In this document: positions 1,577-31,914 of the stretch, piece by piece
Layout: every line of letters begins with the position of its first letter
Position numbering within the stretch: the first letter of the stretch is position 1
Assembly: GCF_000014785.1 (NCBI RefSeq)
Contig: NC_008340.1
Span: forward strand, 1,560,001 to 1,592,000
Source of the DNA: Alkalilimnicola ehrlichii MLHE-1
GTDB lineage: Bacteria; Pseudomonadota; Gammaproteobacteria; Nitrococcales; Halorhodospiraceae
Direction: 5' to 3'
Length of the DNA: 32,000 bases
Made by a program: the position numbers and the translations under genes
Notes under the pieces: model-generated
Databases searched by the model: none
Seen by the model: the letters and a program-made list of their open reading frames with translations, nothing else
Told to the model about the DNA's origin: nothing

Positions 1577-1583
1577 AACAGCC

Positions 1584-1829: not shown

Positions 1830-1915
1830 GCCCGGATGGCGGAATTGGTAGACGCAGGGGACTTAAAATCCCCCGGCTTTAAGCCGTGCCGGTTCAAGTC
1901 CGGCTCCGGGCACCA
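1830..1915 (+). tRNA. leuZ: tRNA-Leu (anticodon TAA), class II with long variable arm
   Basis: 86 nt. Acceptor stem GCCCGGA/TCCGGGC, anticodon loop CTTAAAA, long variable arm, T-arm GGTTCAAGTCC, ACCA end. Confidence 0.93.
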
Positions 1916-14622: not shown

Positions 14623-14658
14623 AAAAAAACCGTGTCCCCCCCTGAGGGGGGAACACGG
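14623..14658 (-). terminator. Rho-independent terminator of the DUF4168 gene
   Basis: Minus-strand RNA reads CCGUGUUCCCCCC-UCA-GGGGGGGACACGG, with 12 bp paired and one mismatch, followed by U7. It starts 25 nt after the stop codon. Confidence 0.8.
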
Positions 14659-14683
14659 CTGGCCGCTCGGCGGCGGGTGGTTA

Positions 14684-15190
14684 TCAGCGGCGTTCCTGGA
14701 TCATGGCCGCCAGTTCATCCCGCAGCTCCGGGTCGGTGTCGAGCGCGGTGGCGATCTCGGAATACTCCGGTACGCTCAGGCCGCGGTTCTCGATCGCTTC
14801 GACCATCTCATCGTTGGCCTGCTGTTGCAGGTCCCGGGCCTGGTCTGGGTCCTCGGTGCCCTCCAGGCGTTGCGTGTAGTCCTCCTGGATCTCCGTAATG
14901 TCGATGTAGGCATCGGCGAACTGTTCCAGGCTCTGGTCATCGAAGTCGTGCTGGGGGGCACCTGCGCCCATGCCAGGCTGCTCCTGCATGCCGCCTTGCT
15001 GCTGCTGATCCATGCCGCCCTGGCGCTGCTGATCCATCCCGCCCTGTTGCTGTTGCTGCTGCTCCATCCCTTGCTGCCGGTCCATGCCTTGGGGATCGTC
15101 CTGCATGCCGGTTTGGCCGATGGCCATGCCGGAGGCGAGCAGCAGGGAGGAGAAGAGGGTCAACGTCGGTGCGAGCTTACGAATCGTCAT
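14684..15190 (-). CDS. Secreted DUF4168-domain protein with N-terminal periodic Met/Gln-rich repeat region
   Basis: Signal peptide MTIRKLAPTLTLFSSLLLASGMA. About 50 aa of (Q/R)QGGMDQQ-type repeats. The C-terminal roughly 85 aa (LEQFADAYIDITEIQEDY...EMVEAIENRGLSVPEYSEI...DPELRDEL) resembles Pfam DUF4168. SD GGAGG lies 5 nt before the ATG. Confidence 0.8.
   Translation of the reverse strand: MTIRKLAPTLTLFSSLLLASGMAIGQTGMQDDPQGMDRQQGMEQQQQQQGGMDQQRQGGMDQQQQGGMQEQPGMGAGAPQHDFDDQSLEQFADAYIDITEIQEDYTQRLEGTEDPDQARDLQQQANDEMVEAIENRGLSVPEYSEIATALDTDPELRDELAAMIQERR
14978..15097 (-). repeat. Tandem 24-nt (8-codon) imperfect repeats inside the DUF4168 gene
   Basis: Units start at 14978, 15002, 15026, 15050 and 15074. 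The two central units (15002-15025 and 15026-15049) differ at 3 of 24 nt. Each unit encodes one Met (plus-strand CAT GCC/CCC). Confidence 0.6.
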
Positions 15191-15237
15191 GTGGGCCTCC
15201 TGAGGCTTGCGATTGACAATGAATTCGGCCTGAGTTT

Positions 15238-15253
15238 TGCAAGCTTCCTGCCA
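15238..15253 (-). promoter_or_regulatory. sigma54 (-24/-12) promoter driving the DUF4168 gene
   Basis: The minus strand reads TGGCAGGAAGCTTGCA against the consensus TGGCAC-N5-TTGCW, matching 15 of 16 positions with correct GG-N10-GC spacing. It lies about 48 nt upstream of the ATG. A sigma54 activator is encoded divergently. Confidence 0.7.
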
Positions 15254-15364
15254 ACCAGGTGATGAAAACGGAACGGGAGGGTAAGTGACTGAACATAAAG
15301 GGACGCGTTTTCAGGGTCTCGTCGGGGCGCCGCCCTGGCGGCTAGGAACCCAGAACGGGGAGGG

Positions 15365-15400
15365 TGTGTCGTATAGGCACATGTGTCAGAAAGGACAGCA
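15365..15400. promoter_or_regulatory. Candidate enhancer (UAS) dyads for the sigma54 activator
   Basis: TGTGTC-N5-GGCACA (15365-15381) is immediately followed by TGTGTC-N6-GACAGCA (15382-15400). These lie 112-147 bp upstream of the -24/-12 element. By eye only. Confidence 0.3.
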
Positions 15401-15403
15401 CCC

Positions 15404-16903
15404 ATGACGCTGACCCGGTTCGTCAGACGGGCCTACAGCTTGCGACTGGCGCTCATCCTCCAGGTTCTGGTGCCCCTGGCGCTCCTGCTGGCGGCTGCCA
15501 CCTGGGTGGGCATGAAGGCATTGGAGTCGAGCCTGGAGGAACGCTTGGAGGAGGACGTCCAGCTGATCGCACGGGCAATACGGCTGCCGGTGAGTCATAG
15601 CCTCGAGCGGGAGGAGGAGGAAGCCGTGCGCCAGGCGCTGGAATCGGTCTTCACCATCGGCCGTGTCTATGGGGCCTACGTCTATGACCGACGAGGTGAG
15701 CAGGTGGCGGCGGTCGGCGCCGTGAAGCCCTCAGCGGCCGAACGCAATCGGCTTCAGGCCCTGGCCGAGGAGGGGCGGGATACCGGGGAGTACGAGTTGA
15801 TTGAGGGCCGCCAGGTTTACTCCTACTTCATCCCCCTGGTGGATACCGGCGGCCGAATCAGCGGGCTGCTGCAGGTCACGCGGCGGCAGAGCGACTTTGC
15901 CGATTACGTCAGTGGCATCCAGCGCCAGGCCGGTCTGGCCGCACTACTGACCACCCTGATCATCGGCGCCCTGGTGCTCGTGGGGCACCGTACCGCCATA
16001 GGGCGCCATATGGCGCAGCTCAGCCACAGCATGGCGCAAGTGGAGGCCGGCAATCGAGGCCACCGGGCCCGGGAGCAGGGCCCCCGGGAACTGCGCCAAC
16101 TCTCCGGGGCTTACAATCAAATGCTCGACAGCATCCAAAGAGCCGAACAGGAATTGCTGGAGCGGCAACGGCGGGAGGCGGAGCTTGAGCGGGCGCTGGC
16201 AAGCTCGAAGCGGCTGGCAGCGCTGGGGCGGTTATCAGCCGGTGTGGCCCACGAGCTGGGCACGCCCCTGAGTGTGATCGACGGTCAGAGCCAGCGCGGT
16301 TTGCGGGATCCTGATCTATCGCCGCCAGCGTCCAAGGCCTTCCGCCGCATTCGCAGCGAAGTGGATCGCATGAGTCAAATCGTGCAGCAGCTCCTGGACT
16401 TTGGCCGGCCATCGAACGGCGAGTGGCGGATGCTGACCGTGCGCGATCTGGTCCAACGCGTCGCGCACACCCAGATGGAGTCGGATCGGGCGCGCGGGGC
16501 CCGCATCGATTGGGTCCCGCCGGCCGAGGACGGGTTGATGGTCCGCGGGCACCCGATGCGCCTGGAGCAGGCCCTGACCAACTTGGTTCAGAACGCGATT
16601 CACGCGGCCAATGGGGGCTGCGTGCGCATCCGTTGGGGGCGGGTCGGAGACCGGGTGGCCCTGTGGGTCGAGGACGACGGGCCGGGCGTACCCGAGGGGG
16701 ATCGGGCGCGGCTGTTCGAGCCTTTTTTCACCACCAAGCCGGTTGGCGAGGGGACGGGGCTGGGTTTGGCGGTGGTCCATGGTATTGCACAGGAGCACGG
16801 TGGCGACGTGAGGCTGCTCCCCGACAGTGAGCTGGGAGGGGCCTGTTTCCGTCTGTCCCTGCCAGCGGCAGATGAGCAACAGAAGGATGAAGGGTCATCA
16901 TGA
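15404..16903 (+). CDS. Sensor histidine kinase (TM-periplasmic domain-TM-HAMP-HisKA-HATPase), ZraS/NtrB-class
   Basis: Two TM segments flank a periplasmic domain of about 150 aa. H-box GVAHELGTPLS, N-box LVQNAIHA, G1 DDGPGV, G2 GTGLGLAV. I prefer the ATG at 15404 (AAGGA 9 nt upstream) over the track's GTG at 15383. The stop overlaps the RR start (ATGA). Confidence 0.88.
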   Translation: MTLTRFVRRAYSLRLALILQVLVPLALLLAAATWVGMKALESSLEERLEEDVQLIARAIRLPVSHSLEREEEEAVRQALESVFTIGRVYGAYVYDRRGEQVAAVGAVKPSAAERNRLQALAEEGRDTGEYELIEGRQVYSYFIPLVDTGGRISGLLQVTRRQSDFADYVSGIQRQAGLAALLTTLIIGALVLVGHRTAIGRHMAQLSHSMAQVEAGNRGHRAREQGPRELRQLSGAYNQMLDSIQRAEQELLERQRREAELERALASSKRLAALGRLSAGVAHELGTPLSVIDGQSQRGLRDPDLSPPASKAFRRIRSEVDRMSQIVQQLLDFGRPSNGEWRMLTVRDLVQRVAHTQMESDRARGARIDWVPPAEDGLMVRGHPMRLEQALTNLVQNAIHAANGGCVRIRWGRVGDRVALWVEDDGPGVPEGDRARLFEPFFTTKPVGEGTGLGLAVVHGIAQEHGGDVRLLPDSELGGACFRLSLPAADEQQKDEGSS

Positions 16904-18321
16904 GTCGAACGGATATTGCCTCCCAGAGGATCCTGTTAGTCGAGGATGACCAGGGGCTTCGGGATCTGCTGCACGAGGAGTTCGAAGACAGCGGGGCGCA
17001 GGTGCAGGCGGTCGCCGCCGCTGAGCAGGCCGCACCCCTGCTGCTTGCTTGGGAACCGGATCTGGTGGTCAGCGACCTGCGCCTGCCCGGTGCGGATGGC
17101 ATGGCACTGCTGGCTCAGGCACGCGAGCTGCACGTGCCGCCGGCGTTCCTGATCATTACCGCGTTTGGCAGCATCGACCAGGCGGTGGAGGCGCTAAAGG
17201 CGGGGGCCGACGAGTTTCTCACCAAACCCCTCGACCTGGAGCACCTGATGCTCTGTGTCAACCGACTCCTGGACACCCGGCGGCTACGGGGCGAAGTGCA
17301 GCGCTTCCGGAAGCTTCTGGATGAGCCGGAGTTCCACGGCATGGTTGGGAACAGTCGCGCAATGCGGGTGCTCTGTGACCAGATCAAGCGGCTGGCCCGG
17401 GGCACGGGACCGGTGCTCATCCTGGGCGAGAGCGGCTCCGGCAAGGAATTGGTCGCGCGGGCGATCCATCAGGAGAGCGAGCGCGCAGCCGCCCCCTTCC
17501 AGGCCGTAAACTGTGCGGGTATCCCCTCGGAGTTGCTCGAGAGCGAGTTCTTCGGCCACGAGGCCGGTGCCTTCACCGGTGCCCAGCGGGCACACAAGGG
17601 GCTGTTCCGACAGGCGGACGGCGGCACCCTGTTCCTGGATGAGATCGGCGAGATGCCCCTGGCGTTGCAGGCCAAGCTCCTCCGGGTGCTGCAGGATGGG
17701 GTGATCCGGCCGGTTGGGGGGCAAAGGGACTATGCGGTGGACGTGCGGGTGGTCTGCGCCACCCACCGGGATATCGAGGAGCGGGTGGCGGAGGGCAGCT
17801 TCCGCGAGGACCTCTTTTACCGCCTGGAGACCTTTACCCTTCAAGTGCCCCCGTTGCGCGACCGTGAAGGCGATGCGGAGTTGTTGGCCATGCGCTTTCT
17901 CAGCCGCTTCGCTGCCCGTTTGGGGCGCGAGGAGATCACCGGTTTCAGCGGCGAGGCGCTCCAGCGACTGCGCGCCTACGATTATCCGGGCAACATCCGG
18001 GAGCTGGAAAACGCCGTGGAGCGTGCCGTCACCTTCTGCGACGGCAGTGAAATCCGCACCGAGCACCTGCCCGCCCGGATGCGGGCGGCGGGGCCCGCCG
18101 GCGTGCGGACCGGCGAGGGTGATGGCGCGCCGGGCGTCACCGGGGAGCACATCCTGCAGCAACTGGTTTCAGGAGGACCGGTCCTGCCCACGCTGCAGGA
18201 GTTGGAGCGCCGGTACATCGACTACGTCCTGGCGCAGGTGGATGGCAATAAACGGCGTGCCGCGGCCATCCTGGACATCGGTCGCCGCACCCTGTACCGG
18301 CGGCTGGAGACCGGGGATTAA
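16900..18321 (+). CDS. sigma54-dependent response regulator (REC-AAA+-Fis HTH), NtrC/ZraR family
   Basis: REC domain with DLVVSDLRLPG. Walker A GESGSGKE. The sigma54-contact loop GAFTGA is present (EAGAFTGAQ), as is FLDEIGEM (Walker B). C-terminal HTH is NKRRAAAILDIGRRTLYRRL. Confidence 0.93.
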   Translation: MSRTDIASQRILLVEDDQGLRDLLHEEFEDSGAQVQAVAAAEQAAPLLLAWEPDLVVSDLRLPGADGMALLAQARELHVPPAFLIITAFGSIDQAVEALKAGADEFLTKPLDLEHLMLCVNRLLDTRRLRGEVQRFRKLLDEPEFHGMVGNSRAMRVLCDQIKRLARGTGPVLILGESGSGKELVARAIHQESERAAAPFQAVNCAGIPSELLESEFFGHEAGAFTGAQRAHKGLFRQADGGTLFLDEIGEMPLALQAKLLRVLQDGVIRPVGGQRDYAVDVRVVCATHRDIEERVAEGSFREDLFYRLETFTLQVPPLRDREGDAELLAMRFLSRFAARLGREEITGFSGEALQRLRAYDYPGNIRELENAVERAVTFCDGSEIRTEHLPARMRAAGPAGVRTGEGDGAPGVTGEHILQQLVSGGPVLPTLQELERRYIDYVLAQVDGNKRRAAAILDIGRRTLYRRLETGD

Positions 18322-18388: not shown

Positions 18389-20374
18389 ATGGCCGCCACC
18401 TGGTATAAAGGGCTACTGTGCAGTCTGTTGCTGGCGATAGGCGCCGTCATCGCGGGGCCGGCGCCGGCTGCCGCGGACGACGAGGCGGAGTATAGGGAGC
18501 AGCGCGAACGCTTCCAGGAGGCCTGGAAGCGTTTGGTCAGCGGCCGGGAGGTGGACCTGGCGGCGGTGACATCCCGGCTGGGTGACTACCCGCTGGTACC
18601 CTACCTGCATTACCGCGATTTGCGTAATCGGCTCGACAACGCCCGGGCGGCGGAGGTACAGGCGTACCTGGACCGTTACGATCTCCCGGTCAACGGCTTC
18701 CTGCGCCGGGCCTGGCTCCATCAGCGTGCCGACGCCGGTGACTGGCAGGGCTTTATTGCCGCCTACGACCCCGGCCAGACCGATACCGCCCTCGAATGCC
18801 ACTATCTCGAGGCCCAGGCCCGAACCATCGGCCTGGACACCCATTGGCTGGACGAGGCCCGGGCATTATGGACCGTGGGCCATTCCCAGCCCGATACCTG
18901 TGACCCGGTCTTTGACCGCCTCTACGAGCGGGGCGTGCTGCGCTCGGACGACGCCTGGGCGCGGATCGACAAAGCCATGGAGAATGGCGAGCTCGGGCTC
19001 GCCCGCTTCATCGCCCGACGGCTATTGTCGGGCGATGAGCGGGCCCTGTTCGACGCCTGGGCGCGGCTTCACGAGCAGCCGGAACGGCTGCTCGACGACC
19101 CGACGATCCCATCGGGCGGCGAACGCGGCCGGACCATCCTCGCCCATGCCCTGACCCGCCTGGGGATCCGTGACCCCGACGAGGGTTGGGCGGCGCTGCA
19201 GCAGGTGGCGGAGGAGGGCCCCCTGAGCCAGGAGCGGGTGCATGAGCTGGCCCGGCATATCGCGCTGCGCGCCGCCTACGGCCACCGGGACTCCGCTGCC
19301 GACTACCTGGATCGCTTGCCAGCGGCCGCCGTCGACGATGAGGTCCGCCTCTGGCGGGCGCGGGTGGCCTTGGGCCGGGAGGATTGGCGGGGCCTGCAAC
19401 GGGCGATCGCCGATCTCCCCGCCGAGGAAGGGGCGCGGGACACGTGGCGCTACTGGGATGCGCGGGCGGACCTCGCCCTGGGACGGCTGCAGGAAGGCCA
19501 ACAGGCCCTCGCTGAACTTGCCGAACGTCGCAGCTATTACGGTTTTCTCGCCGCTGACCACGGCCTGCACGACTACCCCCTACCGCGCCGGGGCACGAGG
19601 CAGCCGGCGGCCAGCCTGGCGGCCATTGAGGCGCTGGCCGACCACCCGGGCCTGAAGCGTGCCCACGAGTTCTTCCGGCTGGGTATGTGGCCGGAGGCGC
19701 GCCGGGAGTGGCGCGAGGCGCTGACCCGGCTCCCGCCCCCGGAGCAGGAGGCGGCTGCCGAGCTGGCCCACCGCTGGGGGTGGCACGACCGGGCCATTTT
19801 CACCGCCCACCAGGCCGGGCTGCACGATGCGGTCGACCTGCGTTTCCCCACCCCGTTCCGGGATCGGGTCGAGTACCACGCGCGCGAGGCCGGCCTCGAC
19901 CCCGCCTTTGTCTTCGCCATCATCCGCAAGGAGAGCGCCTTCATGCAGGATGCCCGGTCGCACGCCGGCGCCCTGGGCCTGATGCAGGTGATGCCGGCCA
20001 CCGGGCGCGCCGTATCCCGGCGCCAGGGGCGGGCCTTGCCGTCCACCTATAGCCTGCTCGACCCGGAGGTGAGCCTGAGGGTGGGTACCGCCTATCTGGC
20101 AGAGATGCTGGCGCGTTATGACGGCAACCCGGTGCTGGCGGCGGCGGCTTACAACGCCGGTCCGCGCCACGTGGACCGCTGGTTCGAGGCTGCACCGGAC
20201 GCCAGTCCCGATGTCTGGGTGGAGCGGATCACCTTCCGGGAGACCCGCGGCTACGTCAAGGATGTGCTGGCCTGGACCAGTATCTTCTCCTGGCAACTGG
20301 GCCGGGAGCCGGTACGGGTTGCCAGCATGATGCGTGGTGGGGCGCTGTTTGCGGAACTCGACGACGAAGGGTGA
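18389..20374 (+). CDS. slt: Soluble lytic murein transglycosylase (Slt70-like)
   Basis: Signal peptide (MAATWYKGLLCSLLLAIGAVIAGPAPA). Superhelical N-terminal repeats. C-terminal SLT domain with catalytic ESAF, then GLMQVMP and AAYNAGP. The ATG at 18389 is preceded by GGGGAGAGGG. The track ORF start at 17714 overlaps the RR in another frame. Confidence 0.88.
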   Translation: MAATWYKGLLCSLLLAIGAVIAGPAPAAADDEAEYREQRERFQEAWKRLVSGREVDLAAVTSRLGDYPLVPYLHYRDLRNRLDNARAAEVQAYLDRYDLPVNGFLRRAWLHQRADAGDWQGFIAAYDPGQTDTALECHYLEAQARTIGLDTHWLDEARALWTVGHSQPDTCDPVFDRLYERGVLRSDDAWARIDKAMENGELGLARFIARRLLSGDERALFDAWARLHEQPERLLDDPTIPSGGERGRTILAHALTRLGIRDPDEGWAALQQVAEEGPLSQERVHELARHIALRAAYGHRDSAADYLDRLPAAAVDDEVRLWRARVALGREDWRGLQRAIADLPAEEGARDTWRYWDARADLALGRLQEGQQALAELAERRSYYGFLAADHGLHDYPLPRRGTRQPAASLAAIEALADHPGLKRAHEFFRLGMWPEARREWREALTRLPPPEQEAAAELAHRWGWHDRAIFTAHQAGLHDAVDLRFPTPFRDRVEYHAREAGLDPAFVFAIIRKESAFMQDARSHAGALGLMQVMPATGRAVSRRQGRALPSTYSLLDPEVSLRVGTAYLAEMLARYDGNPVLAAAAYNAGPRHVDRWFEAAPDASPDVWVERITFRETRGYVKDVLAWTSIFSWQLGREPVRVASMMRGGALFAELDDEG

Positions 20375-20415: not shown

Positions 20416-20982
20416 TCAGTAGGCGTAGGCCGCCTCTAGCATCTGGATGTCAAAGCCGTCGTTGTCGCTATGTAGACCGGCGTTGGAGGTGTGCTGGAGA
20501 CGGTAGGTGAGACTGAAGCCGGGGCTGGCCTGCCACCTCAGTGCCAAGTGGGAGGTGAACTGGAAGGGGCCGCCGAGGGCCCGCGAGCCGAGCCGGCGCC
20601 CGGAGATCAGCGTGGGTGCAGTGCCCAGCCCCAGGGCCAGCGGCAGGTCCCGGTGGCCGATCCAGAGGCCGGGTCCGGCACTGAGCTTGTAAAGGCGGTC
20701 GCCCTGGTAACTGACCCTGGCCAACTGCACCCCGCCGTAAGCCAGAACGGTCCACCCGGAGGCCGTCTCCATCAACGACCGTTGCCAGGGTCGCCAGTGC
20801 AGGCCGAAATAGCGGGCGCCGGATGCCCCCCCAAGCCCGCCACCCGCGCGCACACCCAGTTCCCCGGGATCGGCCGTCTGGGCGGTGGCGTCTCCGCTGA
20901 CAAAGATCAGGGCCGCGGCCAGCAGGCCGGCGGCGACGGTGCCCCGAAACGGCGCCCTGTAGCGCGTGTGAATCGCTCTCAT
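20416..20982 (-). CDS. Acyloxyacyl hydrolase / PagL-like lipid A 3-O-deacylase (outer-membrane beta-barrel)
   Basis: Signal peptide, alternating beta-strand pattern, conserved C-terminal HTSNAG (His...Ser catalytic pair) and a terminal aromatic residue. Confidence 0.75.
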   Translation of the reverse strand: MRAIHTRYRAPFRGTVAAGLLAAALIFVSGDATAQTADPGELGVRAGGGLGGASGARYFGLHWRPWQRSLMETASGWTVLAYGGVQLARVSYQGDRLYKLSAGPGLWIGHRDLPLALGLGTAPTLISGRRLGSRALGGPFQFTSHLALRWQASPGFSLTYRLQHTSNAGLHSDNDGFDIQMLEAAYAY

Positions 20983-24173: not shown

Positions 24174-26447
24174 TCAGGCCCGAGATCCTGCAGCCGATTT
24201 TCCCGCGGGTCTGCTCCGCTTGAGCAGCACCGAGTTACCGATCACCGAGAGTGAACTCGCCGTCATGGCAATGACGCCGATCATCGGGTGGAGCAGGCCG
24301 ATGGCGGCGATAGGGATGGCGGCGAGGTTGTAACCCCAGGCCCAGAATAGGTTCTGCACGATCTTGCGGAAGGTCAGCCGGGAGAGTTCCACGGCCTCGA
24401 CCACCTTGGTGAGTTCGCCGCTGACCAGCGTAACGTCGGCCGCTTCGATGGCGACATCCGCCCCGGCGCCGATGGCGATGCCCACGTTGGCCTGCTTGAG
24501 CGCCGGGGCGTCGTTGATGCCGTCGCCCACCATGGCCACGTGTTCGCCGTAGCGTGCCTGGAGTTGCCGGATGGCATCCACCTTGCCCTCGGGCAGCACA
24601 CCGGCCTGCACCTCGTCCAGCCCCACCTGCTCGGCGACCGCTTGGGCCGTGCGCTCGTTGTCGCCGGTGACCATGACGCAGACAATGCCGAGCCCATGCA
24701 GGGCCTCAATCGCTGCGGCTGAGTCGTCCTTGATGGTGTCGGCCACCGCCACGACGCCGGCCGGCCGATCGCCGATGGCCACCAGCATTGCGGTCTTGCC
24801 CGCGCCCTCGAGTGCGGTGAGCGGCTCCTCTAACGCGCTGATCGCCACGCCGTGCTCGGTGAGCAGGCGGCGGCTGCCGACCAGCACCCGCTCGCCGTCA
24901 AGCTGCGCCTCCACACCGCGGGCGGTGTGGGAATTGAAGCCGGTAGCGCTGCCAATGGACAGCCCGCGCGCCTTCGCGCCCTGGACGATTGCGTCCGCCA
25001 GCGGGTGGGCGGAGCCCGCTTCCACGGCCGCCGCCGCAACGAGCACCTGTTTCTCAGTGAACCCCTGCGCCGGCAGGGCATCGGTCAGGGCCGGCTCGCC
25101 TTTGGTGATGGTGCCGGTCTTGTCCAAGACAATGGCCTTGATGTCCTTGAGGCTCTGGATCGCCGAGCCGGAGCGGATCAACACCCCCCTTTCGGCCCCC
25201 ATCCCCGAGCCCACCATCAGCGCCGTGGGGGTCGCCAAGCCCAGGGCGCAGGGGCAGGCGATGACCAGCACCGCAATGGCGGCGAGCATGGCCAGGATGA
25301 TCGGCGGTTGGCCCGAATCCACCCAGGGCAGGAAGCCCTCGCCCCAGACGAGAATGGGGGAGAGCGGGCCGCTGAAAAACAGCCAGGCGATGAACGCGCC
25401 CCCCGCGATCACCAGCACTGCCGGCACGAAGCGGGCGGTGATGCGGTCGGCCAGTTCCTGCACCGGTACCCGCGAGCCCTGGGCCTCTTCCACGAGCCGG
25501 ATGACTTGCGCCAGGAAGGTGTCCTTGCCCACCCGGGTGGCACGCACCTTGAGCAACCCCTGCTGGTTGATGGTGGCACCGAGCACGGTGGCCCCGGCCG
25601 CCTTCTCCACCGGCACGGATTCGCCGGTGGCAATGGACTCGTCCACGGTGCTCTCACCCTCGAGCACCACACCGTCTGTGGGTACTTTCTCGCCAGGGCG
25701 CACAATCATCACATCGCCCGCATTGAGCTGCTTGACCGGCACCTCCACTTCCTCGCCATCGCGCTCCACGCGGGCGGTCTTCGCGCCCATGTCCAGCAAC
25801 TTCCGTATGGCCGAGGAGGCCTGCCCCTTGGCGCGGTACTCCAGATAGCGCCCCAGCATGTGGAAGGCCATGATCGTGGCCGCCATCTCGATGAACGAGG
25901 TCATCGGGTAGACAAACCCCACCAGACCGATGAAGTAGGGCGGCAGACTGCCCATGGAGATGAGCACGTCCATGTTCAGTTGCCCGGACTTCAGCGACCG
26001 CCACGCCGAGCGGTGGGTGGCCGCCCCGCCGGCCAGAAAAACCACGGGGAAAGCCAGCACCGCGATGAGGACGAGATACCCCGGGATGGGTTGCCAGAAC
26101 ATGTGGGGCATCATCAGAGTCATGATGAGGGTGGTGGGTACGGCGGCAATCCACAGTCGCTTCCATGCCTGGCTCAGGTAGGCTTCCTCGATTTCCGCAT
26201 CGTCCGCGGCATCGCTGCTGCCCTCCTCGCTGACCGAGGCGACGTCGTAGCCGGCGTCCTCTACTGCCCGGCGGATGCGGCTGCTGTCCAGCTTGTCGGT
26301 CTCGTAGCGGACCTGCACACGGTGCGCGGCGATGTTGGTGGTGACGTCCACCACCCCGTCGAGCTTCCGCAGGGACGTGGCAATGATTCCTGCGCAGTGG
26401 TCGCTGCCCATGCCGGGGACCGTCACTCGAAGCTCGCTGTTATCCAT
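24174..26447 (-). CDS. copA: Copper(I)-translocating P1B-1-type ATPase
   Basis: One N-terminal HMA-like domain. TGES, CPC in TM4 ([13 protein letters not shown]), DKTGT, TM5 YN (WGYN), TM6 M..SS (MTASS), GDGINDAP. Confidence 0.93.
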
Positions 26448-26834: not shown

Positions 26835-27323
26835 TCAGTGAGCAATTTGCCGGCGGACCAGCCATACAATCAGCGGCGGGAGCAGGATCCATTGCATCAC
26901 CGGCAGGACTCCGGTCCCCAGTATCGGCAACACAGGCATGTGGTCAGCATAAGCCCACCGCTGTGCGATCTCCGTGGCGTGCCATTCCAATACAAAGGTA
27001 ACGAGCAGCCCCGCAGCGATGAACACAGTGAGTTGTCGTGCTGCCGGGCGGCAAACCCACCAGCGGTTGCGCCATACTGCTGCGACCAGCCAGAAGCTGG
27101 ACAACGCGATCAGCGCGTCGCCGCCAGTCGCTCGCGTGCAGAAGAGGATCGCATCCCAGTGATTCGCCTCCGCCATCGATTGGAAAAATGGAACCTGCAG
27201 AAACTCCCATGGGTAGTTCAGCAGAAAGGCGAACAGCAGCACATTCAACTCCGGCTGCCGCGTGATGCGGTCCGCCAGGCCAGTGGCGTTCAGCCGGTGG
27301 TCCTTAGTGTTGCCTCCCACCAT
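26835..27323 (-). CDS. Hypothetical 4-TM membrane protein, family not recognised
   Basis: Four hydrophobic segments, coding-like codon usage, and 14 nt from the SHOCT gene. The start is uncertain. The ATG at 27323 overlaps the upstream gene by 20 nt with a tight SD. An internal GTG (LNVLLFAF) has GGAG 6 nt upstream. Confidence 0.55.
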   Translation of the reverse strand: MVGGNTKDHRLNATGLADRITRQPELNVLLFAFLLNYPWEFLQVPFFQSMAEANHWDAILFCTRATGGDALIALSSFWLVAAVWRNRWWVCRPAARQLTVFIAAGLLVTFVLEWHATEIAQRWAYADHMPVLPILGTGVLPVMQWILLPPLIVWLVRRQIAH

Positions 27324-27906
27324 GGCCTCCGTGGCGGTACATGTCGCCCCGCCGTTCGCCCATGCCTTCACGCATCCGCTCTCGCTGCTCGTCGGTGAGT
27401 ATGTCCTGCATGTCGTTCCGCAGGCGGATGCGGTCGACCATCATGTCGCCGTGGAGGTCCGCCATGCGGTCGTGCAGTTCACGGACGGCATCGGGGTCAG
27501 GGCGCTCTGCACCCAGGAGGGCCTGCATCTCTTCGCGCAGGTCCATCATCTCGGCCATGCGGCGGAACTGCTTGTGACGGTGCTCGCTGCGGCGCTCGCG
27601 CAGTTGAGCTTGCTGGTCTTCATCCAGATCCAACCCGCGCATCATGCCCACACCGCCGTGCATGCCCATACCACCCTGGCCACCGCCATGCATACCGCGA
27701 CTCATCGTGCCCTGCATGCCGCCGGACGCGCCGCCCATCATCGGGCAGTCCTGCATCATGCCCATGCCACCGCCCTGTATGCCTTGAGCGCCGTGGCCGC
27801 CGCCCATCATGCCTTGCATGCCCTGAGCGCCGGCGATGCCGACAACGCCTGCCCCAACGAGCAGGACCAGACCGAGTGCTGCCTTGTAACCGCGATTCAT
27901 CGTCAT
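27304..27906 (-). CDS. Periplasmic CpxP/Spy/ZraP-family protein with Met/Gly/His-rich N-terminal region and His-rich C-terminus
   Basis: Signal peptide. About 65 aa of GMQGMMGGGHG / GMGMHGG-type sequence. Two LTXXQ-type motifs (LDEDQQAQL and LTDEQRERM) in a helical domain. The tail is HGGHGGRQH. SD AGGAGAG lies 7 nt before the ATG. Confidence 0.8.
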   Translation of the reverse strand: MTMNRGYKAALGLVLLVGAGVVGIAGAQGMQGMMGGGHGAQGIQGGGMGMMQDCPMMGGASGGMQGTMSRGMHGGGQGGMGMHGGVGMMRGLDLDEDQQAQLRERRSEHRHKQFRRMAEMMDLREEMQALLGAERPDPDAVRELHDRMADLHGDMMVDRIRLRNDMQDILTDEQRERMREGMGERRGDMYRHGGHGGRQH

Positions 27907-28640: not shown

Positions 28641-28994
28641 ATGGCTCGATCCACCTTTGCCCACATTCTTGTTCCGCTGCTCGCCGTGGCGTTTCTGCTG
28701 CTACCCCTGCACCATGCCTGGGGCGCAGCACACCATGACCATGGCGGGGCCGATACCGCGTATGCCGATGCCGTGCCTATGGCATCCAGTGCGGCGGACG
28801 ACGGCTGTGGGCAGGCAGCACCGAACGGCCAGGCGGGTGACTGTGTCTTCTGTGCCACCTGTGTATCGGTACTGGCCGCCGACTCGGCCGAGCCCATCCC
28901 ACCCCTGCCGCTGTTGACCGCGCTGTCCATCGGGCAGTCGCCATCCCGGGCTCCTGCCCCAGAGCCCCGACCTCCCAGACTGCCTCTCGCCTGA
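28641..28994 (+). CDS. Small secreted His/Cys protein, CzcI-like (DUF2946-type) leader gene of the efflux operon
   Basis: Signal peptide ending HHAWG, His cluster AAHHDHGG, central CVFCATC, and a C-terminal PEPRPPR tail resembling the PERP tail of CzcI-like proteins. It sits upstream of the cusCBA-type genes on the same strand. No SD is present. Confidence 0.6.
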   Translation: MARSTFAHILVPLLAVAFLLLPLHHAWGAAHHDHGGADTAYADAVPMASSAADDGCGQAAPNGQAGDCVFCATCVSVLAADSAEPIPPLPLLTALSIGQSPSRAPAPEPRPPRLPLA

Positions 28995-29155: not shown

Positions 29156-30409
29156 ATGCATTTCTTGAGTCCGGGCAGGCCAAAAGGCCTGCTGTTTGGT
29201 GTGCTGCTGGCCGCCGTGCCCGTCCTGGCACCGGCCCAGCCCGCCCTGACCCTGGAAGCGGCCGAGAACATGGCCCTTCAGGAGGAACCGACCATCGCCC
29301 GTTACCGGGAGCGGGCCGCTGCCCGGGAGGAGGCCGCTGTGGCGGCGGGCGCCCTGCCGGACCCCCTGCTGATCACCGAGCTGATGGACGTGCCCGCGGA
29401 CCGGCCGCGGCTGGACGGGGACGAGATGACCCAGTTCAAGGTGGGGCTGCGGCAGGCCTTCCCGCGGGGCCAGACCCGCACTCTCCGCCAGGAGCGAGGG
29501 GGTCTGCGGGCGAGCCAGGCCCATGCCCGGGGCGACGACGCCGAACGGGCGGCGCTCAACGCGGTGCGTCAAGCCTACTTGCGGCTCTACAACCAGCGCC
29601 GGGCCGTGGCATTGCTGGAGGGCAACCGCAGTCACTTCGAAGAATTGCTGGAAATCACGGAGCGGGCGCTGGCCGCGGGTCGTGTCTCCCGCCAGGATGT
29701 GATCCGCGCCGAGCTGGAGCTGGAGCGGCTGGAGGACCGCCTGAGCGCCGCCCGGGCGGCAGAGGCCGACGCCGAGTCGGCCTTAGCCCGCTGGATTGGT
29801 CCCCAGGCCGCGCGGCGGCCGTTGCCGGATGCGCTGCCGGAGCTAGCGCTACCGGATGACAACGGCATTGACCATCACCCCCTGTTGCAGGCCCAGGACT
29901 TGGCCGTGGCCGACCAGCGCCGGGGAGTGGATCTGGCCCGGCAGGGCTACCGGCCCGAGTGGTCGGTGGAGCTGACCTACGGGATGGCCACCGGCAATGA
30001 CATGGATGCCCCGGATCGCCTGTCCGCCATGGTGGTGCTGGACCTGCCGCTGTTCACCCGCAATCGCCAGGACCGGGATGTGGCCGCCAGCCGGCGCGAG
30101 GTGTATGCCGCCAAGCACGACCGCGAGGTGCAGCACCGCACCCTTACTCAAGCCCTGGCCAGCCAGGCGGCCCGCTGGCAGCGCCTGCGGGAGCGAGAGC
30201 GGCGCTTCGAGGAGCGGCTGCTGATCCACGCCGCCGACAATGTGGAGGCAGCGGAACAGGCCTACCGGGCGGGCACCCTGGCGTTCACCGCACTGATGCA
30301 GGCCCGCATCACCTATCTGGAAACCCACCTGGATGCCGTTCAAGTGGCCACCGACCGCCGGATGGCCCAGGCGGAACTCCTCTATCTCTCAGGAGCGACC
30401 CGGCGATGA
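29156..30409 (+). CDS. cusC: Outer-membrane efflux protein (TolC/OEP family), CusC/CzcC-like
   Basis: 417 aa. Signal peptide without a lipobox Cys. Two OEP repeats with coiled-coil Ala/Arg/Glu-rich helices. Its stop overlaps the cusB start (ATGA). Confidence 0.85.
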   Translation: MHFLSPGRPKGLLFGVLLAAVPVLAPAQPALTLEAAENMALQEEPTIARYRERAAAREEAAVAAGALPDPLLITELMDVPADRPRLDGDEMTQFKVGLRQAFPRGQTRTLRQERGGLRASQAHARGDDAERAALNAVRQAYLRLYNQRRAVALLEGNRSHFEELLEITERALAAGRVSRQDVIRAELELERLEDRLSAARAAEADAESALARWIGPQAARRPLPDALPELALPDDNGIDHHPLLQAQDLAVADQRRGVDLARQGYRPEWSVELTYGMATGNDMDAPDRLSAMVVLDLPLFTRNRQDRDVAASRREVYAAKHDREVQHRTLTQALASQAARWQRLRERERRFEERLLIHAADNVEAAEQAYRAGTLAFTALMQARITYLETHLDAVQVATDRRMAQAELLYLSGATRR

Positions 30410-31914
30410 AGTTTGTGAGCCTATTCATTGCGTTATTGATCGGTTTCGGCCTTGGCGCGGGCGCATTGTGGTTCCACCAGGGGGGCACCGCGGGGCAGGG
30501 AGGCGGCAGCAGCGAACGGGAGGTCCTTTACTACCAGCATCCGCACAACCCCACGATCCGCTCGGACGAGCCGCGCAAGGATGAGATGGGCATGGACTAC
30601 ATCCCCATCTACGCCGGTGACGAGGGCCGGGACGATGACCCGGACGTGCTGAGAATCAGCCCGGTGGTCGTCCAGAACATGGGGGTGCGCACGGCCGAAG
30701 TGGAGCGCGGTGCGCTCCACCGGCAAATCAGCACCGTGGGCTTCGTCGAGGTAGACGAGGCGGCACAATCCCATGTCCACCTGCGCACCGAAGGCTGGAT
30801 TGAGGACCTGCGCGTACGCACCACCGGCGAGCGGGTGACCGCCGGTGAGGTGCTTTTCCGGCTCTATTCGCCGGCGCTGGTCAGCGCCCAGGATGAGTTG
30901 CTGCAGACCCTGCGTCGCAACGGTAACGCCGGTCCGGCCCGGGAGCGGCTGCGGGCGCTGGGTATGCCCGCCGATGCGATCCGTCAGGTCGAACAGCAGG
31001 GCCGGGCCCTGAACCTGGTGCCCGTGAAGGCGCCCCAGGACGGCGTCGTCCAGGCACTCAATGTGGCCGAGGGGATGTTCGTGCAGCCGGGCACCGAGGT
31101 GATGAGCATCGCCGATCTGTCGCGCATCTGGGTCATCGCCGATCTGTTCGAGCACCAATCGGACGCGGTGCGCGAGGGCCTGGATGCCGAGGTCCACTTC
31201 CCTTTCCGGCCCGGCGAGACGTTGGTCGGCAGCGTGGGCTACATCTACCCGACCCTGGCCTCACCGACCCGTACCATCCGGGCCCGGATCACCCTGGATA
31301 ACCCGGACGGGCGACTCAAGCCTGGCATGTGGACCGATGTGCATATCGACGGCGAATCCACCGAACCGGTGTTGCATGTGCCCGCGGAGGCCGTGATCCG
31401 CACAGGCCGTCAGGACCGCGTGGTGACGATGGAGGAGGAAGGCCGCTTCCGCGTGCACGAGGTGCGGGTAGGGCGGCGCGCCGGCGACCGGTTGGAGATC
31501 CTCGAGGGGCTGCAGGTCGGGGCGCGCATCGTCACCTCCGGCCAGTTCCTGATCGACTCCGAGTCCTCGGTGACGGTCAGCCTGGCGCGCCTGCAGGCCG
31601 CGGCGGAAGCCGATGATGGCAGCGTCGCCGCCGAGGGCCGCATCAACCACGTGGATCCGGAGGCCCGCCAGGTCAATCTGGACCATGAGCCGATCGCGGA
31701 ACTGGGTTGGCCGGCGATGACCATGGATTTCGAGGTGGCCGAGGACGTGGCGCTGACGGATCTTGAGCCCGGTGATCCGGTGATCATCCACATCCGCGAG
31801 CGTGAGGACGAAGAGTATGTCTACGAGCTGACCCACATCGAGCGGCTGGCCGATCCGACCGGCGAGACCGATGACGCCCCCGATCACGACGCCCACACGG
31901 GCCATGACCACTGA
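30406..31914 (+). CDS. cusB: Cu(I)/Ag(I) efflux RND periplasmic adaptor (CusB) with fused C-terminal CusF-like metallochaperone domain and His-rich tail
   Basis: N-terminal YYQHPHNPTIRSDEPRKDEMGMDYIPIY parallels E. coli CusB YWYDPMYPNTRFDKPGKSPFMDMDLVPKY. HlyD-type barrel-sandwich and beta-barrel regions are present. The C-terminal LDHEPIAELGWPAMTMDF parallels CusF IHHDPIAAVNWPEMTMRF. Confidence 0.9.
   Translation: MKFVSLFIALLIGFGLGAGALWFHQGGTAGQGGGSSEREVLYYQHPHNPTIRSDEPRKDEMGMDYIPIYAGDEGRDDDPDVLRISPVVVQNMGVRTAEVERGALHRQISTVGFVEVDEAAQSHVHLRTEGWIEDLRVRTTGERVTAGEVLFRLYSPALVSAQDELLQTLRRNGNAGPARERLRALGMPADAIRQVEQQGRALNLVPVKAPQDGVVQALNVAEGMFVQPGTEVMSIADLSRIWVIADLFEHQSDAVREGLDAEVHFPFRPGETLVGSVGYIYPTLASPTRTIRARITLDNPDGRLKPGMWTDVHIDGESTEPVLHVPAEAVIRTGRQDRVVTMEEEGRFRVHEVRVGRRAGDRLEILEGLQVGARIVTSGQFLIDSESSVTVSLARLQAAAEADDGSVAAEGRINHVDPEARQVNLDHEPIAELGWPAMTMDFEVAEDVALTDLEPGDPVIIHIREREDEEYVYELTHIERLADPTGETDDAPDHDAHTGHDH

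What the first reader, a model, noticed from the sequence alone, without database searches (positions are those of the whole stretch)
14623..18321. zraP/zraSR-like divergent sigma54 envelope module whose output is a DUF4168 Met/Gln-repeat protein instead of a CpxP-fold ZraP
The layout copies E. coli zraP<>zraS-zraR. A periplasm-sensing HAMP histidine kinase (15404-16903) is translationally coupled to a GAFTGA-containing sigma54 activator (16900-18321). Both are divergent from a single small secreted protein gene (14684-15190). That gene has a near-consensus -24/-12 promoter and its own strong terminator, so it forms a self-contained one-gene output. The output protein is not a ZraP/CpxP/Spy homologue. 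It combines a domain of unknown function (DUF4168-like) with a periodic Met-containing repeat. As far as I know, no function or regulator has been assigned to DUF4168 proteins. The context predicts a signal-inducible periplasmic stress or metal-buffering factor.
Basis: partly seen in the sequence, partly recalled or inferred. Interest (0 to 1): 0.7.

Follow-up and report, generated by a model that had tools for sequence, protein, structure and literature searches.

The report
Sigma-54 sensor module driving DUF4168 protein
A membrane sensor kinase and its sigma-54 activator sit beside one small secreted protein of unknown function (DUF4168), and the same three genes and DNA control sites recur in over 100 loci from other bacteria, which gives this orphan protein family its first predicted regulator.

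Summary
The window is Alkalilimnicola ehrlichii MLHE-1. Gene 14684-15190(-) encodes a secreted 168-aa protein with a signal peptide, a disordered Met/Gln repeat and a confident four-helix DUF4168 domain. It has a TGGCAG-N5-TTGCA -24/-12 promoter, a strong terminator and a divergent HAMP histidine kinase/NtrC-type activator operon.

Orthologous kinase/activator pairs flank DUF4168 in 62 of 87 DUF4168-seeded loci examined. Fifty-seven of these carry a strong -24/-12 site, against 0 of 15 loci without the pair. A new 17-bp palindrome, TGTGYC-N5-GRCACA, lies 70-275 nt upstream of -24 in 54/54 promoters checked. Searching from the kinase sensor domain gave DUF4168 next door in 28/28 metagenome loci with complete flanks.

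The output protein is unrelated to ZraP/CpxP/Spy by sequence, profile and fold. The kinase and activator are not ZraS/ZraR orthologues.

The Met repeat occurs in only 8 of 224 family members, with no MxxM or MxM motif and only one His in the linker (family median His = 0, Cys = 0), so metal buffering is not favoured. A true CpxP/Spy-family gene lies 9 kb away in a copper-resistance island.

Verdict: a real, conserved, uncharacterised ZraPSR-like module and a new variant of a known kind. Its signal and biochemical function remain inferred.

The parts
14628..14660 (-). Intrinsic terminator of the DUF4168 gene: a 15-bp G+C-rich stem, a 3-nt loop and a U7 tail. It separates the gene from fabA downstream.
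   Evidence: the 76-nt stretch containing it folds at -37.6 kcal/mol, z = -3.7.
14684..15190 (-). Monocistronic gene for a 168-aa secreted DUF4168 protein (WP_011629119). This is the output gene of the module.
15116..15190 (-). Sec-type signal peptide, approximately residues 1-25 (MTIRK, a hydrophobic core, then AIG). There is no lipobox Cys.
   Evidence: Read from the translation. The same N-terminal pattern is seen across family members. The cleavage site is inferred.
14939..15115 (-). Disordered Met/Gln-rich repeat linker, residues 26-84 (GGMDQQQQ-type units). Part of it is encoded by a 24-nt tandem repeat at 14987-15052.
   Evidence: pLDDT below 60. Met spacing is 6-10 residues. Tandem repeat. 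The PGM-x-QQ-D repeat is conserved only in the Alkalilimnicola/Alkalispirillum/Halorhodospira clade.
14690..14938 (-). DUF4168 domain, residues 85-167. It is a four-helix domain (H85-110, H115-135, H140-152, H154-167), strongly acidic (net -20), with no Cys.
   Evidence: Pfam 63.5 bits. AlphaFold2 pLDDT 94-98. No PDB relative by sequence or by fold. Charge.
15196..15201 (-). Ribosome-binding site AGGAGG, 5 nt upstream of the ATG.
   Evidence: Read from the sequence.
15238..15253 (-). Sigma-54 (-24/-12) promoter TGGCAGGAAGCTTGCA, 47 nt upstream of the start codon.
   Evidence: Equivalent sites occur in 57 of 62 kinase/activator-linked loci and in 0 of 15 unlinked loci.
15365..15381 (.). Upstream activator sequence: the 17-bp palindrome TGTGTCGTATAGGCACA (consensus TGTGYC-N5-GRCACA), about 120 bp upstream of -24 and 22 nt from the kinase start codon. 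It is the predicted binding site of the adjacent activator.
   Evidence: Exact match in the window. Present with at most 2 mismatches in 54/54 promoter-bearing loci, centred 70-275 nt upstream of -24. Binding itself is inferred.
15404..16903 (+). Sensor histidine kinase of 499 aa: TM1, a periplasmic single PDC/Cache-like domain (approximately residues 45-165, with conserved motifs GRVYGAYVYD and VYSYFxPL...GLLQVTRR), TM2, HAMP, HisKA and HATPase_c.
   Evidence: sCache_3_2 at E = 6e-4, below the cutoff. AlphaFold2 model. Foldseek top hits are the WalK extracellular domain (E = 2e-8, TM 0.74), KinD, DctB and CitA.
16900..18321 (+). NtrC-family sigma-54 enhancer-binding response regulator of 473 aa (REC, AAA+ with GAFTGA, HTH_8). 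It is translationally coupled to the kinase through an ATGA overlap.

Best explanation
This is a dedicated three-gene envelope signalling module. The kinase senses a periplasmic cue through a single PDC/Cache-type domain. It phosphorylates the co-translated NtrC-type activator. The activator binds the palindrome TGTGYC-N5-GRCACA about 120 bp upstream and uses ATP and its GAFTGA loop to open the sigma-54 closed complex at TGGCAG-N5-TTGCA. That switches on a single terminator-bounded gene.

The product is exported by Sec. The mature protein of about 14 kDa is very acidic and almost free of His and Cys. It carries a disordered Gln-rich tail (Met/Gln repeats in this clade) and a compact four-helix DUF4168 domain, and it acts in the periplasm. 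The most likely role is an inducible envelope-stress effector that may also feed back on the kinase, as ZraP and CpxP do in their systems, but built on an unrelated fold.

Shown here: gene content, domain architecture, fold classes, the promoter, palindrome and terminator, and their conservation and two-way co-occurrence. Inferred: that the adjacent activator binds the palindrome, sigma-54 dependence in vivo, the nature of the signal, the biochemical activity of DUF4168, and any feedback.
For: Domains and motifs.

Conserved wiring: 62 DUF4168-seeded loci carry full-length orthologues next to DUF4168, with the activator 54-67% identical and the kinase 37-55% identical including the sensor domain. 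These come from Ectothiorhodospiraceae, Wenzhouxiangellaceae, Halomonadaceae, Thiohalobacter, Thioalkalivibrio, Arhodomonas, Saccharospirillum, Pseudohongiellaceae, a Lysobacteraceae MAG and Desulfurivibrio. Of the 62, 57 have a -24/-12 site scoring at least 6/7, positioned 36-80 nt upstream of the start codon in the loci where the start was called cleanly (mostly about 40-55 nt). None of the 15 loci lacking the pair has one.

The palindrome is present in 54/54 promoter-bearing loci. The gene order changes (51 divergent, 11 co-directional), yet the palindrome and promoter stay directly upstream of DUF4168.

Reciprocal test: starting from the kinase sensor motif, 57 of 72 metagenome loci have DUF4168 adjacent, including 28 of 28 with complete flanks.

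No other gene is conserved in the neighbourhood.

The secreted, acidic, two-part nature of the product is supported.

DUF4168 also occurs without this kinase/activator pair (Halorhodospira, Marinobacter). In two related Hyphomonadaceae it lies divergent from an ECF sigma factor and an anti-sigma-like gene. This fits an effector with a function of its own rather than a mere kinase subunit.
Against: There are no expression, binding or phenotype data. The signal is unknown. The DUF4168 fold has no informative structural neighbour, so its activity rests on analogy and context. The conserved residues (F91, A118, Q122, A125, M129, Y143) look mostly like core positions, and no catalytic or ligand-binding motif was identified. 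Many loci come from related lineages, so the locus counts overstate the number of independent events. Two kinase/activator-linked loci (L035, L068) and three with weaker sites lack a strong -24/-12 match by my simple score. The ECF-sigma association rests on only two related genomes.
Confidence: 0.62

Rival explanations
1. DUF4168 here is a periplasmic soft-metal (Cu(I)/Ag(I)) buffer. The periodic Met thioethers of the repeat bind metal, and the kinase senses metal stress.
For: There are seven Met residues at 6-10 residue spacing in a flexible tail, and Met is retained in the diverged repeat units of Halorhodospira relatives. A copper island lies 6-13 kb away in the same window: a CopA-type P1B-ATPase at 24174-26447, a CusC-like gene at 29156-30409 and a CusB-CusF fusion at 30406-31914.
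Against: Only 8 of 224 family members have at least 4 Met in the linker. The usual linker is Q/A/P/G-rich. Most kinase/activator-linked orthologues lack Met repeats, whereas the Met-repeat proteins of Halorhodospira lack the pair and the sigma-54 promoter. There is no MxxM or MxM motif, only one His in the linker, and the family median for both His and Cys is 0. No metal gene is conserved within 6 kb in about 80 loci. The copper island has its own CpxP/Spy/Metal_resist protein at 27304-27906. The 24-nt DNA repeat and the length differences between close relatives (166, 168 and 193 aa) suggest repeat slippage rather than a tuned site.
Confidence: 0.1
2. DUF4168 is mainly an accessory or co-sensor subunit of the kinase, a periplasmic partner that sets or relays the signal. 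Known examples of this kind are YycH/YycI for WalK, QseG for QseE, or ZraP acting purely as a repressor. On this reading it is not a stress effector.
For: Co-occurrence is strict in both directions within this subfamily, and the three genes are the only conserved ones. The best structural match of the kinase sensor is the WalK extracellular Cache domain, which is controlled by accessory proteins. A regulator whose only evident target is one periplasmic protein suits a feedback loop.
Against: DUF4168 proteins exist without the kinase: Halorhodospira, nine Marinobacter loci, a second Aquisalimonas lutea copy, alphaproteobacteria and Bacteroidota-like contigs. Halomonadaceae carry two tandem copies. 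Being the inducible output rather than co-transcribed with the kinase is more typical of an effector. The WalK similarity is a generic PDC-fold match at 12-14% identity.
Confidence: 0.2
3. DUF4168 is an inducible periplasmic polyanion that buffers cations or protons (Na+, Mg2+, Ca2+, or pH) in saline and alkaline habitats.
For: The domain carries a net charge of -10 to -22 over 88 residues in proteobacterial members. The loci retrieved come overwhelmingly from haloalkaliphilic, hypersaline or marine organisms.
Against: The taxon bias is partly caused by the search patterns used. Acidic periplasmic proteins are normal in halophiles. No recognisable cation-binding motif was found. Distant members are much less acidic, at -5 to -7.
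Confidence: 0.06
4. The adjacency is coincidental or merely syntenic. On this reading the activator controls other genes, and the -24/-12 match upstream of DUF4168 is non-functional.
For: Nothing positive. Sigma-54 consensus matches can occur by chance: 4 matches with at most 1 mismatch in the window against 1.8 expected.
Against: The promoter and palindrome are conserved across many families and across two gene orders, and absent wherever the kinase/activator pair is absent. The flanking genes are otherwise not conserved.
Confidence: 0.02

Closest known systems
ZraP-ZraS-ZraR of E. coli and Salmonella (zinc-associated envelope stress response)
   Same: A small secreted protein gene lies divergent from a kinase/activator operon. 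The small gene is driven by a sigma-54 promoter activated by the adjacent NtrC-family regulator. The system has an essentially one-protein periplasmic output (PMC4987338; E. coli locus fetched).
   Different: The output is unrelated to ZraP: no Metal_resist or LTXXQ hit, hhalign probability 1%, and no fold match. The kinase resembles ZraS only in the transmitter domain, at 34% identity over 250 aa, and scores 147 bits against the ZraS model cutoff of 479. The activator is 42% identical to ZraR and scores 332 bits against a cutoff of 760. The kinase/activator operon lacks its own sigma-54 promoter in 38 of 42 divergent loci, whereas zraSR has one. The product has no His-rich or Zn-type motifs.
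CpxP-CpxAR and Spy-BaeSR/CpxAR (periplasmic stress adaptor or chaperone induced by an envelope two-component system)
   Same: The logic is the same: an envelope-sensing two-component system induces a small all-helical periplasmic protein, which in those systems protects the envelope and feeds back on the kinase.
   Different: Those systems use OmpR-type regulators and sigma-70 promoters, and their products have the CpxP/Spy LTXXQ fold. DUF4168 has a different four-helix domain plus a long disordered tail. A genuine CpxP/Spy-family gene exists separately in this window at 27304-27906.
PspF-PspA and GlrKR (QseEF)-QseG, which are sigma-54-dependent envelope-related circuits
   Same: A bacterial enhancer-binding protein (bEBP) with a palindromic upstream site activates a very small regulon linked to envelope status. 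GlrR recognises TGTC-N10-GACA (PMC4987338), which shares half-site letters with the palindrome found here.
   Different: PspF has no receiver domain and PspA is cytoplasmic. The GlrR targets are small RNAs and QseG is a lipoprotein co-sensor. The half-site spacing here is TGTC-N5-GACA within TGTGYC-N5-GRCACA, not N10.
WalK (YycG) extracellular Cache domain with the accessory proteins YycH and YycI
   Same: It is the best structural match for the kinase sensor domain (Foldseek E = 2e-8, TM 0.74). It is a precedent for a single Cache sensor being modulated by extracytoplasmic partner proteins.
   Different: Sequence identity is only 12-14%. WalK belongs to a Gram-positive system with an OmpR-type regulator. 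There is no homology between YycH/YycI and DUF4168.

Membership tests
DUF4168 (Pfam PF13767) | Score above the Pfam gathering threshold across the domain | tested here: met
   63.5 bits against a cutoff of 25.8, residues 85-159 aligned to profile positions 2-94 of 95. A library search found 2114 clusters (at 50% identity) at E <= 1e-3.
ZraPSR system | The output protein belongs to the ZraP/CpxP/Spy (Metal_resist/LTXXQ) family | tested here: not met
   No hit at E <= 10. hhalign probability 1% against E. coli ZraP. No PDB fold match with E < 1.
ZraPSR system | The kinase is a ZraS orthologue (NCBIfam NF007688 equivalog cutoff) | tested here: not met
   146.8 bits against a cutoff of 479, with only the transmitter domain aligned. 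BLASTP gives 34% identity over residues 251-497 only.
ZraPSR system | The regulator is a ZraR orthologue (NCBIfam NF007689 equivalog cutoff) | tested here: not met
   332 bits against a cutoff of 760. It is 42% identical to ZraR, whereas orthologues in DUF4168 loci are 54-67% identical.
ZraPSR system | Sigma-54 promoter in front of the small periplasmic-protein gene, next to the kinase/activator operon | tested here: met
   TGGCAG-N5-TTGCA at 15238-15253(-). It is conserved in 57 of 62 loci. This is sequence evidence only.
ZraPSR system | A second, divergent sigma-54 promoter driving the kinase/activator operon (autoregulation) | tested here: not met
   The only GG-N10-GC site scoring at least 5/7 on the kinase strand in the window is a reverse-strand overlap of the DUF4168 promoter. 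Only 4 of 42 divergent loci have a strong site on that strand, and all four are similar overlaps.
ZraPSR system | Induction by zinc or envelope stress, and repression of the kinase by the small protein | not testable with these tools
   This needs expression and genetic experiments.
NtrC-family bacterial enhancer-binding response regulators | Receiver domain, AAA+ sigma-54 interaction domain with a GAFTGA loop, and a C-terminal Fis-type HTH | tested here: met
   Response_reg 81.6 bits, Sigma54_activat 237 bits, AAA_lid_14 and HTH_8. GAFTGA is read in the translation. No named equivalog model reaches its cutoff.
Transmembrane class I histidine kinases with a periplasmic PDC/Cache sensor | Two TM helices flanking a PDC-fold domain, followed by HAMP, HisKA and HATPase_c | tested here: met
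   Pfam transmitter domains. AlphaFold2 gives a helix, a five-stranded sheet and a helix. There are 150 PDB matches at E <= 0.001; the 50 listed are extracytoplasmic PDC/Cache-type sensor domains of kinases and chemoreceptors (WalK, KinD, DctB, CitA, Tlp/Mlp receptors). The Pfam sCache_3_2 hit is below its cutoff, at E = 6e-4.
Sigma-54 promoters | GG and GC dinucleotides exactly 10 nt apart within TGGCAC-N5-TTGCW, at a suitable distance from the gene | tested here: met
   One mismatch to TGGCAY-N5-TTGCW, 47 nt from the ATG. Function in vivo was not tested.
Met-rich Cu(I)/Ag(I)-binding periplasmic proteins (SilE/PcoE, and the Met-rich loops of CopA/CueO type) | Clustered MxxM, MxM or HxxM-type motifs, usually with His | tested here: not met
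   The linker has no MxxM or MxM, one His and no Cys. The Met repeat is present in only 8 of 224 family members. Which motifs define this class is taken from general knowledge.

The most novel reading that the evidence does not exclude
DUF4168 defines a previously unrecognised class of inducible periplasmic envelope-stress proteins. It would be functionally analogous to CpxP, Spy and ZraP but built on an unrelated four-helix fold with a disordered Gln-rich tail. It has been wired independently to different extracytoplasmic signalling systems. In Gammaproteobacteria and Desulfurivibrio it is served by a dedicated PDC-sensor kinase and sigma-54 activator with their own palindromic enhancer. In Hyphomonadaceae it is served by an ECF sigma/anti-sigma pair. 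The kinase/activator pair would then be a new, named envelope stress response with a one-gene regulon.
Probability: 0.35. Interest if true: 0.7.

Novelty: new variant of a known kind. Interest (0 to 1): 0.55.

Why it matters
DUF4168 is a sizeable orphan family, with more than 2000 clusters at 50% identity. It has no literature, no structure and no assigned regulator. This work gives it a specific and directly testable circuit: a defined sensor kinase, a defined sigma-54 activator, a defined 17-bp enhancer palindrome and a defined promoter, conserved across several bacterial families from saline, alkaline and marine habitats.

It also shows that the ZraPSR logic, in which one small periplasmic protein is the private sigma-54 output of an envelope sensor, has arisen with entirely unrelated parts. 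That makes it useful for understanding how envelope stress responses are built. It also provides a compact, probably orthogonal, sensor-promoter pair for halophile genetics. The biochemical payoff depends on experiments that have not yet been done.

Tried and rejected
1. The search for related loci with the 80-sequence alignment A2 failed because no stretch was conserved enough. A 21-sequence alignment worked.

2. A PDB sequence-profile search gave only chance-level hits, with the best at E = 0.025 over a 30-residue stretch of a knotted Helicobacter protein. Foldseek of the DUF4168 model against the PDB gave nothing below E = 1. The top hits were encapsulated-ferritin hairpins and designed helical bundles, which are generic matches. 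No function could be drawn from the fold.

3. Literature searches for DUF4168, PF13767, IPR025433, 'Alkalilimnicola ehrlichii' with sigma-54, and guessed locus tags or accessions returned nothing relevant.

4. I looked for further conserved neighbours by clustering all ORFs in about 80 loci. Apart from clusters of out-of-frame ('shadow') ORFs overlapping these genes, only the kinase, the activator and DUF4168 are shared widely. fabA and fabB are lineage synteny within Ectothiorhodospiraceae.

5. I tested whether distant DUF4168 members are generally linked to regulators. Two related alphaproteobacteria have an ECF sigma pair. Five other contexts have no adjacent regulator. A family-wide 'always next to a regulator' rule is therefore rejected.

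6. The sigma-70 promoter scan found no promoter for the kinase operon in the intergenic region, so that promoter remains unidentified.

7. I considered an IHF site between the palindrome and the promoter. A good YAANNNNYTGATW match exists in Wenzhouxiangella loci, but I saw no convincing match by eye in the window. This was not pursued.

8. The last homologue search, with the kinase sensor domain, returned only 13 mostly fragmentary proteins. The sensor model therefore rests on a shallow alignment (pLDDT 78).

Full report
**Identity of the window and check of the observation**

The small protein is 100% identical to a 'DUF4168 domain-containing protein' of Alkalilimnicola ehrlichii MLHE-1 (WP_011629119). 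The kinase and regulator are annotated there only generically.

- 14684-15190(-), 168 aa.
- 15404-16903(+), 499 aa. The ATG at 15404 is supported over the upstream GTG by the matching N-terminus of the Alkalispirillum orthologue.
- 16900-18321(+), 473 aa. It overlaps the kinase stop as ATGA.

Pfam confirms DUF4168 at 63.5 bits against a cutoff of 25.8. It also confirms HAMP/HisKA/HATPase_c in the kinase and Response_reg/Sigma54_activat/AAA_lid_14/HTH_8 in the regulator. GAFTGA is visible in the translation.

The -24/-12 element TGGCAGGAAGCTTGCA lies at 15238-15253(-), 47 nt upstream of the ATG, and an AGGAGG ribosome-binding site lies at 15196-15201. A 15-bp-stem terminator with a U7 tail follows the gene at 14628-14660. 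The 76-nt stretch containing it folds at -37.6 kcal/mol, z = -3.7.

The Met residues at positions 29, 36, 42, 52, 60, 68 and 74 form the periodic repeat. Part of it is encoded by a 24-nt tandem repeat of 2.8 copies.

A profile of close family members retrieved 80 genome loci. Further loci came from look-ups of individual proteins.

A tblastn search with the window's kinase and regulator shows full-length orthologues directly next to DUF4168 in 62 loci. The regulator is 54-67% identical. The kinase is 37-55% identical along its whole length, including the periplasmic part. The arrangement is divergent in 51 loci and co-directional (kinase, regulator, then DUF4168) in 11. By comparison, other sigma-54 activators (bEBPs) found in the same loci, and E. 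coli ZraR, are only about 40% identical.

The host taxa include:
- Alkalispirillum, Aquisalimonas, Ectothiorhodospira and Thioalkalivibrio-like organisms
- Wenzhouxiangellaceae
- Halovibrio, Salicola and Halospina
- Arhodomonas, Thiohalobacter, Thiohalophilus and Saccharospirillum
- Pseudohongiellaceae and a Lysobacteraceae MAG
- Desulfurivibrio, which is not a gammaproteobacterium

Of the 62 loci, 57 carry a -24/-12 site scoring at least 6/7. In the loci where the start codon was called cleanly it lies 36-80 nt upstream of the DUF4168 start, mostly about 40-55 nt. Three more have a 5/7 site. None of the 15 loci that lack the kinase/regulator pair has such a site. Those 15 are Halorhodospira, Marinobacter, a second Aquisalimonas lutea copy and others. 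Fisher's exact test gives p = 4e-12, not corrected for shared ancestry. The background density of such sites is 0.07 per kb per strand, true sites included.

**A new cis-element**

Aligning the upstream regions by eye revealed a 17-bp palindrome, TGTGYC-N5-GRCACA.
- It is an exact match in the window at 15365-15381. A search at one mismatch found two sites in 32 kb, against 0.37 expected.
- It is present with at most 2 mismatches in all 54 promoter-bearing loci examined. It is centred 70-275 nt upstream of -24, mostly 72-145 nt.
- It keeps its position relative to the DUF4168 promoter whether the kinase operon is divergent or upstream and co-directional.

This is what is expected of the enhancer for the adjacent activator. 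In the window it lies only 22 nt from the kinase start codon. Binding there could also affect the kinase operon, but that is inference.

Unlike zraSR (PMC4987338), the kinase operon has no sigma-54 promoter of its own. Only 4 of 42 divergent loci have a strong site on that strand, and all four are reverse-strand overlaps of the DUF4168 promoter.

**Reciprocity**

A metagenome scan seeded with the kinase sensor motif RVYGAYVY returned 72 loci. An HMM built from DUF4168 alignment A2 finds a DUF4168 gene next to the kinase in 57 of them, 52 divergent and 5 co-directional. All 15 exceptions are truncated on at least one flank where the gene would be expected. All 28 loci with complete flanks have DUF4168. 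Clustering all neighbouring ORFs shows no fourth widely conserved gene; the only other widely shared clusters are out-of-frame ORFs overlapping these genes. The unit is therefore a self-contained three-gene module.

**The output protein**

AlphaFold2 with a 79-sequence alignment gives a disordered N-terminal half (pLDDT below 60 through residue 84). It then gives a very confident four-helix domain (pLDDT 94-98) with helices 85-110, 115-135, 140-152 and 154-167.

Nothing informative matches this domain:
- The PDB sequence-profile search has a best E of 0.025 over a 30-residue stretch.
- Foldseek finds no PDB match below E = 1, and the top hits are generic hairpins and designed bundles.
- Pfam finds no Metal_resist or LTXXQ hit even at E <= 10.
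- hhalign against E. coli ZraP gives a probability of 1%.

Across the family the protein consists of a signal peptide, a Q/A/P/G-rich linker and the domain. It is usually 120-145 aa long and very acidic. The median pI is at the 4.05 floor of the calculation. The domain net charge is -10 to -22 in proteobacterial members. The median counts of His and Cys are both zero. Some proteins have two or three domains, and Halomonadaceae have two tandem genes of which only the first carries the promoter.

**The Met repeat**

Only 8 of 224 sampled family members have at least 4 Met in the linker. They form one clade: MLHE-1, Alkalispirillum, and Halorhodospira with related MAGs.

In Halorhodospira halochloris the Met-repeat protein sits beside the same fabA-fabB-hemN genes but has no kinase/regulator pair and no -24/-12 site. 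Most kinase/regulator-linked orthologues, including 'A. ehrlichii' AK92 (L014), have no Met repeat. The repeat is therefore not tied to the regulatory module.

The linker has no MxxM or MxM motif and only one His. Repeat number differs between close relatives at 166, 168 and 193 aa, which is consistent with slippage of the 24-nt unit. I therefore rate the metal-buffering reading low. It is not excluded for this clade, because Met is retained in diverged repeat units and a copper island lies 6-13 kb away.

**The sensor**

The kinase periplasmic region has strongly conserved motifs: ARAIRLP, GRVYGAYVYD and VYSYFxPL...GLLQVTRR. It gives a sub-threshold but end-to-end sCache_3_2 match at E = 6e-4.

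The AlphaFold2 model has pLDDT 78 and rests on a shallow alignment. It shows TM1 continuing into a helix, a five-stranded PDC-type sheet, and TM2. Foldseek gives 150 PDB matches at E <= 0.001. They are led by the extracellular Cache domain of WalK (E = 2e-8, TM 0.74) and followed by KinD, DctB and CitA.

The sensor is unrelated to that of ZraS. BLASTP aligns only the transmitter, and the NCBIfam ZraS model scores 147 bits against a cutoff of 479. No NCBIfam equivalog model reaches its cutoff for either the kinase or the regulator. The ligand or cue is unknown.

**How it most likely works**

Shown by sequence and comparison:
- a periplasm-facing PDC/HAMP kinase;
- a translationally coupled NtrC-type activator;
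- a conserved palindromic enhancer and a sigma-54 promoter;
- one terminator-bounded gene for a secreted acidic protein.

Inferred:
- the cue activates the kinase, which phosphorylates the regulator;
- the regulator binds the palindrome and remodels the sigma-54 holoenzyme;
- DUF4168 is made on demand and exported;
- in the periplasm it acts as a stress effector and possibly as a feedback modulator of the kinase, by analogy with ZraP and CpxP (PMC4987338).

DUF4168 occurs without the kinase in several lineages. In two Hyphomonadaceae genomes it lies divergent from an ECF sigma factor and an anti-sigma-like gene, with a shared GCAAC-N16/17-CGTCT motif upstream. This suggests that the protein has a function of its own that different envelope-signalling systems have recruited. 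That second association rests on only two related genomes, and five other distant contexts show no regulator.

**Comparison with known systems, and novelty**

The circuit works like ZraPSR, and more loosely like CpxP-CpxAR and Spy-BaeSR. It fails every membership test for ZraPSR except the architectural one (see the membership table). It is best described as a new variant of a known kind: a ZraPSR-like sigma-54 envelope module built from a different sensor domain, a distinct activator lineage with its own enhancer sequence, and an output protein of a different and uncharacterised fold.

No paper in the searchable library mentions the family.

Interest is moderate. The regulatory prediction is strong and immediately testable, and it gives a sizeable domain-of-unknown-function (DUF) family its first regulator. 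However, the kind of system is familiar, and the biochemical function is still open.

Noticed in passing
window 27304-27906 (-): A genuine CpxP/Spy/ZraP-family gene of 200 aa with a signal peptide (Pfam Metal_resist 49 bits, LTXXQ 41 bits; weak NCBIfam CpxP/Spy hits). It sits inside a copper-resistance cluster. The genome therefore has a classical CpxP-fold protein as well as the DUF4168 module. No -24/-12 match was seen upstream of it.
   Followed up: partly
window 24174-26447 (-), 29156-30409 (+), 30406-31914 (+): A copper/silver resistance island 6-13 kb from the module: a CopA-type P1B-ATPase with an HMA domain, a CusC-like outer-membrane factor, and a CusB-like adaptor with a fused C-terminal CusF domain. 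A small His/Cys-rich secreted ORF at 28641-28994 (+) lies just upstream of the cusC-like gene.
   Followed up: partly
L085 3551-5417 and L088 3444-5411: In Hyphomonadaceae bacterium ML37 and an Oceanicaulis MAG, DUF4168 lies divergent from an ECF sigma factor and a 236-275-aa protein with a weak anti-sigma hit. Both upstream regions share GCAAC-N16/17-CGTCT, which looks like an ECF-type promoter. There are only two genomes and they are related.
   Followed up: partly
L001 6001-6534 (Halorhodospira halochloris): A Met-repeat DUF4168 gene sits upstream of the same fabA-fabB-hemN genes as in the window. Here prfC takes the place of the kinase/regulator pair, and there is no -24/-12 site or palindrome. 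It is unclear whether this lineage lost the pair or never had it.
   Followed up: partly
L062, L064, L065, L067, L068, L069, L074 (Halomonadaceae); L036, L042, L056: Two tandem DUF4168 paralogues follow the kinase/regulator pair. In the Halomonadaceae loci and L056 only the first has the sigma-54 promoter, which suggests a two-gene operon. In L036 and L042 both copies have their own site.
   Followed up: partly
window 15365-15403: The enhancer palindrome ends only 22 nt before the kinase start codon. The promoter and 5' end of the kinase/regulator operon must therefore overlap or flank the activator's binding site, so autoregulation is possible. No sigma-70 or sigma-54 promoter for this operon was identified.
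   Followed up: partly
L026-L077 (Wenzhouxiangellaceae loci), between the palindrome and -24: A conserved A/T-rich CAAGTCATTGATTT-type element matches the IHF consensus (YAANNNNYTGATW). It lies midway between the enhancer and the promoter. I saw no convincing equivalent by eye in the window.
   Followed up: no
window 18413-20374 (+) and 20416-20982 (-): Envelope-related genes lie directly downstream of the regulator: a soluble lytic murein transglycosylase (SLT_L + SLT) and a PagL-family lipid A 3-O-deacylase. Slt is also the neighbour in Alkalispirillum, but it is not conserved elsewhere.
   Followed up: partly
window 14987-15052; compare P0002 (166 aa) and P0003 (193 aa): The Met/Gln linker varies in length between close relatives and contains a 24-nt tandem repeat with 85% matches. 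The tail appears to evolve by repeat expansion and contraction.
   Followed up: partly
window 1501-1915 (+): A cluster of three tRNA genes: Gly-GCC, Cys-GCA and Leu-TAA.
   Followed up: no
L014 (record named Alkalilimnicola ehrlichii strain AK92): Its DUF4168, kinase and regulator are only about 56%, 53% and 67% identical to those of MLHE-1, and its DUF4168 lacks the Met repeat. The strain is probably not conspecific with MLHE-1.
   Followed up: no
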